From Spirochaetia bacterium (GTDB lineage: Bacteria; Spirochaetota; Spirochaetia; DSM-16054; Sediminispirochaetaceae): a stretch of DNA of 64,000 bases. Position 1 is the first letter of the stretch. Each line of letters starts with the position of its first letter. The notes beneath the pieces are model-generated. The model did not search any database and was not told where the DNA came from. It saw only the letters and a program-made list of their open reading frames with translations. The stretch is from positions 1-64,000 of the forward strand of contig JAXHMY010000001.1 in the NCBI GenBank assembly GCA_034520965.1, read 5' to 3'. Positions 29,057-62,574 of the stretch are shown in pieces. A program made the position numbers and the translations under genes.

Positions 29057-29223
29057 AAAGTTACAACAAAGTTACAACACTTTGACATGAAGTATATGAA
29101 CTATATGAAGAAATTACCCTTTTCGTATTCAAATTCTCTTCTATACATGACTAATATGTCCAATATAGTCAAAATAACGGCCTTCTAAGCCGTAGGTCGG
29201 AGGTTCGAATCCTCCTGGACGTA
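29057..29223 (+). repeat. att-like unit A: (AAAGTTACAAC)x2, TATATGA repeats, 3' half of tRNA-Arg(UCU) at 29177-29223
   Basis: ACGGC-CTTCTAA-GCCGT anticodon arm, GGAGG-TTCGAAT-CCTCC T arm, TGGACGTA acceptor strand; no D arm or 5' acceptor strand upstream. Confidence 0.9.
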
Positions 29224-29253
29224 CTTTTATTTTATTACAATATAATGAATTAT

Positions 29254-29288
29254 AGACCACCTTAATAATCAGGTGGTCTTTTTTTTAT
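29254..29288 (+). terminator. Rho-independent terminator after the tRNA fragment
   Basis: AGACCACCT-taataatc-AGGTGGTCT followed by a T run. Confidence 0.8.
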
Positions 29289-29300
29289 TTAAAATACTTG

Positions 29301-29334
29301 AATTCACATCAAATTCACATCAAATTCACATCAA
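29301..29334 (+). repeat. Three tandem 11-bp (A)AATTCACATC repeats, putative integrase arm sites
   Basis: Directly visible between the att core and the integrase; same motif recurs at 32153, 40641 and 62411. Confidence 0.75.
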
Positions 29335-29339
29335 AATAT

Positions 29340-30129
29340 GGAAAACGTATGTTAATGAGCACACATAGCACCGTCAAATGGAAGGCAGAACAATTTATCG
29401 ACGATTACCTCACTAATGTTAATGAGCCAAAACAAGATAATGTTGGTGACTTGCCATTAGGGGAATATGCAGATCCTTTTTTCAATTGGGATAAATGTCC
29501 TCACATACGAAGATTACGAGATGAAAGAAAAAGTGTCACAAAGTACCATGCTATGAGTCCACTGAAACCGGCATCTTCACAATGAAAGAAATTGTAGACC
29601 TATTCCCGCCTGATTCATTAGGTCCATGGAAAGACATCTATGACTATACTTGTTTCCTACTGGCAGCAACTACAGGAATGAGGCGTAGTGAAATTCTCGC
29701 TCTCAAATGGAAAAACATCTCCTTTGATAAATCCTTTATTAATATATTAGAAGCCTGGAAAGACAGAGATGAGATTGGCAAACCAAAGTGGAATAAAACC
29801 CGTATTGTTCCTATCGCCAACAGGACCAAAGATAGTCTTCTAAAACTGAAGGAGGAATCACATACCAAAGAAGATGATGATCTCGTATTTTGCTATGCCA
29901 ATGGCCAGAGATTTGGTGGTACATGGTGGCAAAAACGTTTTCGGAATGCTATGGACAGAGCAAAAATCGACTATGAGAAACGCCATCTAAAACCACATTC
30001 ATTCCGTCATACCCTCAATACCCTACTCCGTAATGCCGGACAAGATCCTGCCAAGATTAGAGCAGCATTAGGTTGGAGTGGAGAGGTTATACAAGATAAT
30101 TATACCCATTGGCAAATCGAACACCTCAA
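29340..30129 (+). pseudogene. Tyrosine integrase, apparently internally deleted and cut at the C-terminus by IS3
   Basis: TGMRRSEILALKW, KPKW, HSFRH, LGWS, NYTH catalytic motifs; short N-terminal piece 29298-29585 in another frame. Confidence 0.88.
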
Positions 30130-30179
30130 TGAACCGCCCCGGCTTTACCGGAGAGATAAACTTGTGAGAGGATGTGTGT

Positions 30180-30509
30180 ATGGTAAAGAAAAACAGCAGG
30201 TATTCAGCAGAGGTAAAGGAGCGAGCGGTACGTCTTGTACTCGACTCTGAGAAAGATTACGGGTCTCGGTGGGCGTCCATTGAGTCGGTAGCAGCAAAAA
30301 TTGGTTGTACAGGAGAGACACTCAGACGTTGGATCAAACAGTCGCAAATAGATGAGGGGGTTGAACCAGGAGTAAGCACCGACGAGAAAACCCGAATAAA
30401 AGAACTGGAAAAAGAAAATCGGGAACTACGAAAAGCTAATGAGATTTTACGTCTTGCCTCTGCTTTTTTCGCTCAGGCGGAGCTCGACCGCCCAAAACGG
30501 AAACTATAG
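30180..30509 (+). CDS. IS3 OrfA
   Basis: [43 protein letters not shown]. Confidence 0.93.
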
Positions 30510-30520
30510 GATTCATTGAT

Positions 30521-61210: not shown

Positions 61211-61407
61211 TTTAAATCCACCTTACCACAAAAAGGCTGGACGGGACAGATTTTTCTGGCTGGCAGTGTTTTTATTTACAGGTACCTGCAGGAACTCTGC
61301 AGAGAACTCATTTTCTTGAGGATGACATCATTTTTCATGCAATTTCCTCTGAAGCAGCTGCAGTCTGATCCGGTTGATCTGAGGAGCAAGGTCAGTCTGG
61401 TAATCCA

Positions 61408-61617
61408 TCATTTCAATAGCCTTATTGCCGGGGAACCGCTTCGGTAAAACCGGTATTCGGATTCATCCAGAGAAAATGAGTGCAACCGCTTCTCGTAAGC
61501 TCTCTTTTGCCTCTTCAATCGTCTCTCCCTGACCGTTTGCACCGGGAACCTCCGGACAAATTGCCCAGAAACCGCCCTCCGGAGCTTTCTCAATAATTGC
61601 CGTGAGCTCACCCTTCA
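61408..61617 (-). pseudogene. hicB: HicB-family antitoxin, second copy, disrupted 3' end
   Basis: First ~48 aa nearly identical to 40274-40531. Confidence 0.75.
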
Positions 61618-61723
61618 TATTTCTTCCCCCACTATCATTATAACAGTGAATTAGCTCGCTTGTCTCGATTGAAAACATCATTACGACATAGCAGAAAGCA
61701 CTAACAGGCACTCACACTGCACC

Positions 61724-61960
61724 AAGTTACAACAAAGTTACACCACTTTGTCGAAAAGTATATGATCTATATGATAAATCATCCCTTTTCCTAACCCAAT
61801 TCTGCATTATACACGACTAATATGTCCAATATAATAAAAAAAGCCTTCGAAGCCGTAGGTCGTCCGTTCGAGTCGGCGAGCGGCAGCGAGGGAAGGCGAA
61901 ACAGCTGCGTACCGGAGGACCTAAGGTCCGAGGGACGCAGCGATAATCCTGCTGGACGTC
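61724..61960 (+). repeat. att-like unit F with ~70-bp hairpin insertion in the tRNA T-loop
   Basis: GTTACAAC arms, TATATGA repeats, GCCTTCGAAGCCGTAGGTCGTCCGTTCGA..insert..AATCCTGCTGGACGT. Confidence 0.85.
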
Positions 61961-61988
61961 ATAACATCCTAAATGGTATATTAGACAT

Positions 61989-62130
61989 ATGCCTTCGGTA
62001 AAAGGGATATCGGGACCATATCGATTCTCTTAAGCACGAATCATGGATTTTCTCCTCACGAGCTTAACAAAATACGTAATTTAATTCGAAAAAACGAGAA
62101 GAAAATAGCGGAGGCTTGGCGTGAGCACTG
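61989..62130 (+). pseudogene. DUF4160-like remnant
   Basis: MPSVKGISGPYRF / HGFSPHELNKIRNLI..EAWREH with an internal deletion; upstream of DUF2442. Confidence 0.6.
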
Positions 62131-62387
62131 AGAATAATGTAGAGGCAAGAATAAAAAAAGCACGTATCACTGAGGACGAAATTATCGCCCATCTTGTAGA
62201 TGGCCGCACCATAAGTGTGCCCCTCACTTGGTCGTGGAGACTATCAGAAGCTACCGAAACACAGAGAAACAACTATGAGCTGATCGGTGACGGATTAGGG
62301 ATTCATTGGCCGGATGTAGACGAGGATATAAGCGCACGGGGAATGTTAATGGGCACTCCTGCAAAGCCCCCAAAGCAGAAGGTATAA
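62121..62387 (+). CDS. DUF2442-family protein (TA-associated)
   Basis: LVDGRTISVPLTWSWRLSEAT..GIHWPDVDEDIS. Confidence 0.85.
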   Translation: MSTENNVEARIKKARITEDEIIAHLVDGRTISVPLTWSWRLSEATETQRNNYELIGDGLGIHWPDVDEDISARGMLMGTPAKPPKQKV

Positions 62388-62409
62388 TTCCGCATTCTCA
62401 ATACGATCC

Positions 62410-62574
62410 AGACTCACATCGAGTTCACATCAATTTGTCAGGGCGTATATGAACTATATGAGGAATAACCTCTTTCCTAAACAAATTCTCTGTTATACAT
62501 GCCTAATATGTCTAATATAGTTAAAACATGGCCTTCTAAGCCGTAGGTCGCCCGTTCGAGTCAGGCTGGACGTA
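62410..62574 (+). repeat. att-like unit G (TCACATC arms) with tRNA-Arg 3' half (62528-62574)
   Basis: GACTCACATCGAGTTCACATCAATTTG..TATATGAACTATATGA..GGCCTTCTAAGCCGTAGGTCGCCCGTTCGAGTCAGGCTGGACGTA. Confidence 0.88.

What the first reader, a model, noticed from the sequence alone, without database searches (positions are those of the whole stretch)
29057..62574. tRNA-Arg-anchored, integron-like cassette array built from repeated att units
Seen: seven related direct-repeat units (A 29057, B 32153, C 40108, D 40631, E 52963, F 61724, G 62410) share one architecture. Tandem 11-bp arm-like repeats are followed by (C/A)TTTG, then TATATGA x2, then TAATATGTCYAATATA, then the 3' half of tRNA-Arg(UCU). 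D stops before the tRNA part and B and E are degenerate. They separate unrelated cargo blocks of about 0.4-12 kb (TA pairs, secretin-Rhs, kai/PAS signalling, ABC/MalT). Only one broken tyrosine integrase is present, beside unit A. Known: tyrosine integrases use tRNA 3' ends and can stack islands in tandem. Inference: this is a platform that accretes integrase-less cassettes, each carrying only an attP-like end and mobilised in trans. That would be integron-like behaviour using double-stranded tRNA-derived sites instead of attC.
Basis: partly seen in the sequence, partly recalled or inferred. Interest (0 to 1): 0.88.

Follow-up and report, generated by a model that had tools for sequence, protein, structure and literature searches.

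The report
Integrase-less toxin-antitoxin cassettes stacked at tRNA-Arg
A spirochaete carries a row of DNA blocks (toxin-antitoxin genes, many broken, plus other cargo) that end in half of a predicted integrase attachment site and usually a piece of an arginine tRNA gene; relatives have such integrase-less blocks right behind the intact tRNA, and they likely spread by hitch-hiking on visiting integrative elements, a known process, rather than as integron cassettes.

Summary
The seven units are real; short-read contigs bridge F and G. Each is the element-side ('P') half of a predicted tyrosine-integrase attachment site plus, usually, the tRNA-Arg 3' half. The matching opposite ('P-prime') arms and an integrase occur only after unit A and behind the intact tRNA-Arg(UCU) on contig C8. 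Block A-B is a decayed island; blocks B-G hold no integrase trace. Relatives carry similar arrays of 0.4-2.6 kb blocks, mostly toxin-antitoxin operons, at tRNA-Arg(UCU) and (CCU). Five genomes and one metagenome contig have no integrase right behind the intact tRNA. One cassette is 93% identical in another family whose core genes are 39-51% identical. The best reading is a tandem array of cis-mobilisable elements (CIMEs) carried by visiting integrase elements and reshuffled by deletion and homologous recombination. This is known from Streptococcus and Dehalococcoides ssrA islands. It is not an integron: no IntI, and the units do not fold like attC. Trans-mobilisation of free mini-circles is untested and less likely, because P-prime arms are missing. 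This scan noted similar integrase-less tRNA cassette arrays in other genomes before. New variant; moderate interest.

The parts
29008..29031 (+). Motif found just before the arms of large elements ('large-element end'); also before C and before C9 units
29057..29223 (+). Unit A: alpha arm pair (29060-29078), TATATGA x2, AATATGTC box, tRNA-Arg(UCU) 3' half from the anticodon stem; right end of the low-GC island in 1-29 kb
29224..29333 (+). Terminator-like hairpin plus three beta arms (predicted P-prime arms) at +80, +91 and +102 from the tRNA end; the only P-prime end in the array
29298..30129 (+). Broken tyrosine integrase: catalytic part 97% identical to the C8 integrase, N-terminal part 58%, internal deletion, cut by IS3
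30130..31443 (+). IS3-family element, single copy in the assembly, no target-site duplication (points to a deletion beside it)
31457..32107 (-). hicB remnant with shared TA promoter, HTH antitoxin remnant, frameshifted brnT
32144..32278 (+). Unit B: beta arm, degenerate, anticodon part lost, tRNA 3' tip kept
32308..33028 (-). Intact MNT-HEPN toxin-antitoxin-type pair with promoter; its MNT end lies directly behind the intact tRNA in G006, and the whole pair occurs with its own alpha end in G019
33088..39847 (-). HTH antitoxin remnant, Rhs-repeat ORFs and secretin cargo
40060..40271 (+). Large-element end motif plus unit C (alpha arms, tRNA 3' half)
40274..40582 (-). Fusion of a YgiT/MqsA-type C-terminus to hicB, with the shared TA promoter
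40631..40698 (+). Unit D: beta arms only, truncated before the core
40774..52461 (-). B12-binding, PAS histidine kinase, KaiB/KaiC and DnaJ-domain cargo
52760..52917 (-). 5' remnant of the same HEPN gene as at 32987, with its promoter (the cassette's right end)
52963..53139 (+). Unit E: alpha arms; tRNA part interrupted by a small hairpin element
53140..53240 (-). YgiT/DUF4258-type cassette left-end remnant (same left end as after C and G)
53502..61210 (.). ArsR regulator, CAAX protease, ABC transporter and MalT-like regulator cargo
61425..61669 (-). hicA remnant, hicB and shared TA promoter
61724..61960 (+). Unit F (alpha arms, tRNA 3' half) followed by a small mobile-type hairpin and a second tRNA 3' tip
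61961..62387 (+). DUF4160 (internally deleted) and DUF2442 pair; this cassette begins at the tRNA 3' tip in G000, G002, G003, G036 and L068
62410..62574 (+). Unit G: beta arms, tRNA 3' half nearly identical to the intact C8 tRNA; followed by a YgiT remnant

Best explanation
The array is a stack of integrase-less DNA blocks that keep only the element-side half of a predicted tRNA-Arg integrase attachment site, and they likely travel as passengers (CIMEs) of visiting integrase-bearing elements. Inferred steps: (1) A helper element (integrase, P-prime arms and primase, as on C8) integrates at the tRNA-Arg anticodon loop in front of the resident blocks. (2) It can then excise using a more distant P-end, taking the blocks in between with it. 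(3) In a new host it integrates and later excises precisely, leaving the blocks directly behind the tRNA. (4) Blocks first arise by deletion of the integrase end of older elements. Toxin-antitoxin genes likely persist because losing them is costly. Deletion, IS insertion, small hairpin insertions and homologous recombination between repeated TA modules then erode and reshuffle the row and fuse larger cargo to cassette ends.
For: Shown: (a) The 11-bp tandem repeats behave as arm sites. 19 of 30 loci of this integrase family have an 11-bp-period tandem just before the gene, against 3 of 280 control gene starts. 21 of 30 lie beside a tRNA, and in G010 the same repeat stands at both island ends. 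(b) Asymmetry: tandem alpha/beta arms follow the tRNA end in 2 of 27 left ends examined, the two with an integrase (some of the 27 are near-duplicates). (c) Exchange at the anticodon: L054 and L060 are 100% identical over 121 bp from the anticodon stem onwards, with a P-end upstream in one and the tRNA 5' half in the other. Intact tRNAs of relatives carry three different T-arm versions that also occur in units. (d) No integrase or P-prime arm right behind the intact tRNA in G002, G003, G006, G036, G007 (CCU) and L060 (several contigs end within 0.3-2 kb). (e) Horizontal spread: the DUF4160/2442 cassette is 92.8% identical over 391 bp between G036 (another family; five core ORFs 39-51% identical to G000) and G002. 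The MNT-HEPN cassette is 83% identical over 788 bp in G019, a third family. (f) In integrase-less hicB-alpha ends the motifs are 81-94% identical but the spacer only 61-66%, at fixed spacing (three pairs). (g) Origin by deletion: block A-B has integrase, IS3 without target duplication and then TA remnants. A CCU-type left end in G003 keeps a terminator and another 11-bp tandem but no integrase (seen by eye). Known: CIMEs of 1.2-13 kb and gene-less microCIMEs of 130-220 bp lie distal to ICEs/IMEs (PMC7563491), and 15 Dehalococcoides ssrA islands lack integration modules (PMC3146451).
Against: No circle, excision or transfer was observed (hold contigs only). No intact copy of this exact integrase was seen: the C8 copy has two single-base insertions in short runs, which may be assembly errors, and no relaxase or mating-pore gene was found in the stretches scanned, so the route between cells is unknown. 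The left end of the L054 insertion is off the contig and may carry an integrase. L060 and L068 part at the hicB promoter, not at an att core, so homologous recombination explains some order changes. Linkage of T-arm version to the downstream cassette is incomplete: DUF 5 of 5, YgiT 3 of 4, MNT 2 of 3. Stop codons of three TA families lie 4-6 bp from the tRNA tip, which is tighter than random deletion suggests. The link between the window and the C8 tRNA is not shown.
Confidence: 0.6

Rival explanations
1. One reading: each block is an autonomous mini-cassette that circularises between two successive P-ends and re-inserts at the tRNA, driven by an integrase supplied in trans, without P-prime arms (integron-like).
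For: Cassettes are compact: stop codons 4-6 bp from the tRNA tip for HicA, HEPN and YgiT, and higA stop 11 bp before the arms. Left ends are conserved across genomes. Different cassettes come first behind the tRNA in different genomes. Motifs are conserved in integrase-less ends. Cassettes are shared across families.
Against: Integrase-bearing elements of this family mostly keep a tandem arm before the gene (19 of 30), while integrase-less blocks lack alpha/beta P-prime arms; lambda-type excision normally needs both arms (recalled). All the positive evidence fits cis-carriage equally well. Most TA modules in the window are broken or fused, and decay shows no gradient from A to G. No circle junction was found (contigs only, a weak test).
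Confidence: 0.17
2. Immobile graveyard: the units are dead right ends of elements that lost their integrase end; TA genes survive by addiction, and the blocks now move only by homologous recombination or as part of unrelated transfers.
For: B, D and E are degenerate. Toxins are often deleted while antitoxins remain. Hairpin insertions break the tRNA part in many units and are polymorphic (L068 vs L072). L060 and L068 part inside a TA promoter.
Against: Cassettes are placed exactly at the tRNA 3' end in distant families with 83-93% identity. Arm and box motifs are more conserved than spacers in integrase-less ends (few pairs; this could also come from recent replacement by active ends).
Confidence: 0.2
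3. Assembly artefact of a strain mixture or of collapsed repeats.
For: The window starts at a contig end with low coding density (0.35 in 1-30 kb). C9 has a 4.9-kb inverted near-duplicate that holds a unit. Short-read contigs differ from the window by indels in the Rhs-secretin part.
Against: Units are only 63-85% alike. Contigs bridge F and G exactly. The same architecture stands in other genomes and metagenome contigs.
Confidence: 0.03

Closest known systems
CIMEs and microCIMEs in tandem with ICEs/IMEs (Streptococcus; PMC5704250 and PMC7563491, passages read)
   Same: Integrase-less, att-bounded blocks stacked at one target gene, distal to an integrase-bearing element; sizes overlap (1.2-13 kb, plus gene-less 130-220 bp pieces).
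   Different: Here up to seven units in a row against two or three elements per composite in S. salivarius. The small blocks are dominated by toxin-antitoxin operons, two tRNA-Arg genes are used, and the helper seen has a primase but no conjugation genes were found.
Dehalococcoides ssrA genomic islands (PMC3146451, passages read)
   Same: Many direct repeats of the target's 3' end downstream of one gene, each preceded by a conserved element-side motif; 15 islands lack the integration module and are proposed to be cis-mobilisable.
   Different: That system uses a serine recombinase and a T-loop crossover in tmRNA, with reductive dehalogenase cargo. Here it is a tyrosine integrase, an anticodon-stem boundary and TA cargo.
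Tycheposons and tRNA-seeded islands of Prochlorococcus (bioRxiv 10.1101/2020.12.28.424599, passages read)
   Same: Transient integrase (plus primase) elements visit a tRNA and leave partial tRNAs and carried-in flanking DNA behind.
   Different: There the left-over material lacks clear boundaries. Here the blocks keep full, conserved element-side ends.
Integrons (IntI, attI, attC; defining features recalled)
   Same: Compact gene blocks with one site each, added at one end, variable order, rich in TA pairs.
   Different: No resident IntI or attI; the sites are double-stranded arm-type ends with no shared hairpin; TA blocks have their own promoter-like motif and mostly point towards the tRNA. 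The genome has separate attC-like repeats on C3.

Membership tests
Integron | Resident integron integrase IntI beside attI | tested here: not met
   The only integrase in the array is a broken tRNA-island tyrosine integrase; homologues sit beside tRNAs in 21 of 30 loci.
Integron | attC sites with TAAC...GTTA ends that fold as single-strand hairpins | tested here: not met
   Three of four arm regions fold no better than shuffles (z -0.4 to -1.1). F does (z -4.2) but its fold is not shared. Three C3 repeats give the same attC-type stem (z -2.4 to -3.4) (one strand each).
Integron | Promoterless cassettes read from Pc | tested here: not met
   A shared promoter-like motif precedes the reverse-oriented TA genes at five places in the window (the -10/-35 reading is by eye, function untested).
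tRNA-targeting tyrosine-integrase island | Displaced tRNA 3' fragment at the far end, identity starting at the anticodon stem | tested here: met
   (L054 vs L060).
tRNA-targeting tyrosine-integrase island | Matching arm repeats at both ends plus an integrase gene | tested here: met
   Met for block A-B (beta at both ends, broken integrase) and for the G010 island. Not met for blocks B-G.
CIME | No integration or transfer genes | tested here: met
   Blocks B-G: no integrase remnant and no relaxase or T4SS family among the 44 ORFs scanned.
CIME | att sites retained at the boundaries | tested here: inconclusive
   The integrase-distal P-end is kept (intact in C, F, G; degenerate in B, D, E). The other end keeps only the tRNA fragment without P-prime arms.
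CIME | Lies in tandem with, and distal to, an integrase-bearing element at the same target | tested here: met
   Blocks B-G follow the integrase-bearing block A-B. The join to the C8 tRNA is not shown.
CIME | Derived by deletion from an ICE or IME | tested here: inconclusive
   Supported for A-B, for C (large-element end motif) and for a CCU left end in G003. Not shown for the compact TA cassettes.
CIME | Excised and transferred together with the helper | not testable with these tools
   Needs excision PCR or mating; contigs only.

The most novel reading that the evidence does not exclude
An integron analogue built on a tRNA integrase: compact toxin-antitoxin mini-cassettes with a one-sided attP that a visiting spirochaete integrase excises and re-inserts one by one at two tRNA-Arg genes without P-prime arms. 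A second, gene-less module with a palindromic T-loop site may act as an extra joint. Together they would form a pool of cassettes shared across spirochaete families.
Probability: 0.17. Interest if true: 0.8.

Novelty: new variant of a known kind. Interest (0 to 1): 0.45.

Why it matters
It shows how tRNA islands can grow into cassette-like arrays without an integron. The full arm architecture is kept in many natural copies (two arm types, two N-terminally different integrases, two tRNA targets), so one can test directly whether P-prime arms are needed and whether passengers ride in cis or in trans. If single cassettes move in trans, it would be a new route to integron-like gene shuffling and TA spread. 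If they ride in cis, it extends the CIME model to spirochaetes with an unusually long, TA-rich example.

Tried and rejected
Circle or deletion junctions in public runs: the joints listed (for example 61833 to 62530, 29031 to 40636) carry intervening letters that match other units (C9, A, F), so I take them as cross-mapping between paralogous units, not as excision products. Parts of the window without cover in X3, X5 and X7 are not used as absence. Runs with a small share were not used to name a habitat. No match to the unit pattern in viral contigs. Joining the window to C8 through contig-end overlaps or through synteny of the downstream flank in five relatives failed. My first reading of the sequence after C, E and G as a hicB end or native chromosomal flank was wrong: it is a YgiT/MqsA-type C-terminus. 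Five of the 20 metagenome loci (L059, L061, L062, L064, L065) showed no unit features and were left out as chance pattern matches. L057, L058, L066 and L055 repeat one partial unit, and L067 and L071 repeat L068. One false anticodon match inside DUF2442 appears three times among the 46 sites and was ignored. The look-up of earlier findings in look-alike stretches returned nothing. The hairpins inside tRNA fragments were considered as folded recombination sites; related hairpins also sit in terminators behind rRNA operons and at C1:107383, so I read them as small mobile hairpins.
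Full report
Observation. Repeat search and alignment confirm seven related units at 29057, 32153, 40108, 40631, 52963, 61724 and 62410. Each has an 11-bp tandem repeat, TTTG, two TATATGA, an AATATGTC box and, except D, part or all of the tRNA-Arg(UCU) 3' half. 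Two repeat types exist: alpha (GTTACAACAAA; A, C, E, F) and beta (TTCACATCAAA; B, D, G). A profile of the arm part finds five more units on contig C9 and a fragment on C2, all within about 30 kb of contig ends, and nothing else above 13 bits. So the units are clustered, not scattered. The genome is 86% complete; record titles of relatives name Sediminispirochaeta/Spirochaetia. The intact tRNA-Arg(UCU) is on C8, followed by a terminator, two alpha repeats and an integrase; no join to the window could be shown. Short-read contigs bridge units F and G without differences; they may come from the source sample.

What the units are. The integrase family was found in 30 of 401 genomes of the class at E<=1e-40. 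Of the 30 loci returned, 21 have a tRNA just upstream and 19 have an 11-bp-period tandem before the gene, with a different sequence in most. Only 3 of 280 control gene starts have one. In the complete genome G010 the same repeat stands at both ends of a 42-kb island at tRNA-Arg(UCU). The repeats are therefore most likely integrase arm sites, and the units are the element-side half of attP/attR. The roles of TATATGA x2 and the AATATGTC box (directionality-factor or host-factor sites) are inference from recalled lambda-type anatomy. L054 and L060 are identical from the anticodon stem onwards but have a unit versus the tRNA 5' half upstream, which places the exchange at the anticodon. The units do not share an attC-like fold, whereas a separate 130-bp repeat family on C3 does.

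The blocks. A-B has P-prime arms, a broken integrase (97% identical to the C8 copy in the catalytic part, 58% at the N-terminus), an IS3 without target duplication, TA remnants and a beta end. It is a decayed island. B-G have no integrase remnant. Tandem alpha/beta arms after a tRNA end were found in 2 of 27 left ends, those two with an integrase. The large cargoes (Rhs-secretin; PAS kinases and kai; ABC and MalT) are fused to cassette ends: B-C starts with an intact MNT-HEPN pair; C-D, E-F and the DNA after G start with the same YgiT remnant; D, E and F are preceded by a shared TA promoter. Most TA modules in the window are broken, with toxins lost more often than antitoxins.

Relatives. Searches gave arrays of 0.4-2.6 kb blocks at both tRNA-Arg(UCU) and tRNA-Arg(CCU), holding HicAB, several MNT-HEPN pairs, YgiT, BrnT-HTH, DUF4160/2442, HigBA, or a surface protein. 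None of these array loci had an integrase hit. The first block behind the intact tRNA differs: a hairpin module then hicAB in G002 and G003, MNT in G006, DUF4160/2442 in G036, MNT-HEPN in G007 (CCU), a surface protein in L060, and an integrase in G000. G004, G005 and G007 (UCU) end at the contig edge and are uninformative or nearly so. The DUF cassette of G036 is 92.8% identical to that of G002 although five G036 core ORFs are 39-51% identical to G000; it was found in 9 of 401 genomes, some only in part. The MNT-HEPN cassette is 83% identical in G019. In three hicB-alpha ends the arms, TATATGA pair and box are 81-94% identical and the spacer 61-66%. Against a purely site-specific history: L060 and L068 are 99.3% identical over 3002 bp and then part at the hicB promoter into different distal arrays, and T-arm type is not always tied to the following cassette.

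A second module. After many tRNA ends come a terminator, an inverted piece of the T-arm, nested small hairpins and a second tRNA 3' tip. Three complete copies fold with z -3.8 to -4.6; the eroded copies in the window fold weakly or not at all. The inner hairpins also occur in terminators elsewhere in the genome, and one such insertion is present in L068 but absent in L072. Whether the module is a microCIME, a T-loop-type site or only debris is unexplained.

Mechanism. Blocks with a P-end but no P-prime end are what a helper needs to carry them in cis. The helper supplies attL, P-prime arms and integrase and excises at a distal P-end; after transfer and its own precise excision, the passengers sit directly behind the tRNA. 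These steps are inferred. The C8 element (integrase, primase PriCT, defence genes) is a candidate helper, although its integrase has two one-base insertions that may be assembly errors, and no conjugation genes were found in 107 ORFs scanned. I put 0.6 on this, 0.17 on single cassettes moved in trans, 0.2 on an immobile graveyard and 0.03 on artefact. The point in favour of true mini-cassettes is compactness: three TA families end 4-6 bp from the tRNA tip. Repeated deletion squeezed between a live tRNA and an addictive TA could also produce this.

Comparison. Passages read: PMC5704250 and PMC7563491 (CIME definition, accretion, sizes, order), PMC3146451 (ssrA islands, 15 without integration module) and bioRxiv 10.1101/2020.12.28.424599 (tycheposon islands). 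PMC4383910 was seen only as a listing with the abstract start. Pavlovic 2004, Bellanger 2011 and Williams 2002 were seen only as citations. Integron and lambda att features are recalled. No supplements were read. Searches showed no paper on TA cassette arrays at spirochaete tRNA-Arg, judged from titles and abstract starts in an open-access library only. Earlier notes of this scan describe integrase-less cassettes at tRNAs in other genomes; they are unchecked and do not count as support.

Verdict. This is a long, TA-rich spirochaete variant of tandem CIME arrays that works somewhat like an integron array but is not one. Interest 0.45.

Noticed in passing
G000 C3:40600-78200 (L125, L126), C8:1332-3900, C2:425971: A 130-bp repeat with TAAC...GTTA ends and attC-type fold: 21 hits on C3, 3 on C8, 1 on C2; looks like a true integron cassette array. 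Its integrase was not sought.
   Followed up: partly
window 52574-52716: A 142-bp dispersed repeat with over 30 copies genome-wide. Contigs in X1 and X3 skip it (joint 52565-52716), so it is likely a mobile MITE-like element.
   Followed up: partly
G000 C9:24741-29623 and C9:268938-273817: Inverted near-duplicate of 4.9 kb (98.7%) holding a UCU-type unit and OsmC/hemerythrin genes; one copy is followed by a CCU-type unit, so blocks may cross between the two tRNA-Arg targets (or it is an assembly effect).
   Followed up: partly
window 1-29000: Low-GC, heavily fragmented island (type I restriction-modification, CBASS-type nucleotidyltransferase, RadC, SSB, ankyrin, nuclease); 3.7 kb is 92% identical to C9:11199-14915. 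Coding fraction is only 0.35, from decay or assembly indels.
   Followed up: partly
L038 (G013 C75) against L033 and L035 (G010): A 1.1-kb contig joins an element-side end to the integrase side of the G010-type island, i.e. an attP-like junction (tandem island or excised form) of a related tRNA-Arg integrase.
   Followed up: no
G000 C3:506000, C8:148900, C1:107383: Small hairpin elements related to those in the tRNA fragments sit in terminators behind rRNA operons, some in tandem.
   Followed up: partly
window 48143-49577: 92% identical to C1:858355-859750, near HigBA pairs at C1:843-849 kb; genes without Pfam match.
   Followed up: no
G000 C8:24904-27700 (L002:10904-13702): Three adjacent tyrosine-recombinase genes (RIT-like trio, name recalled) inside the island behind the tRNA.
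   Followed up: no
L007:400-1200 (C1:64400-65200): Further TA remnants with the same promoter motif continue past unit G without a unit.
   Followed up: partly
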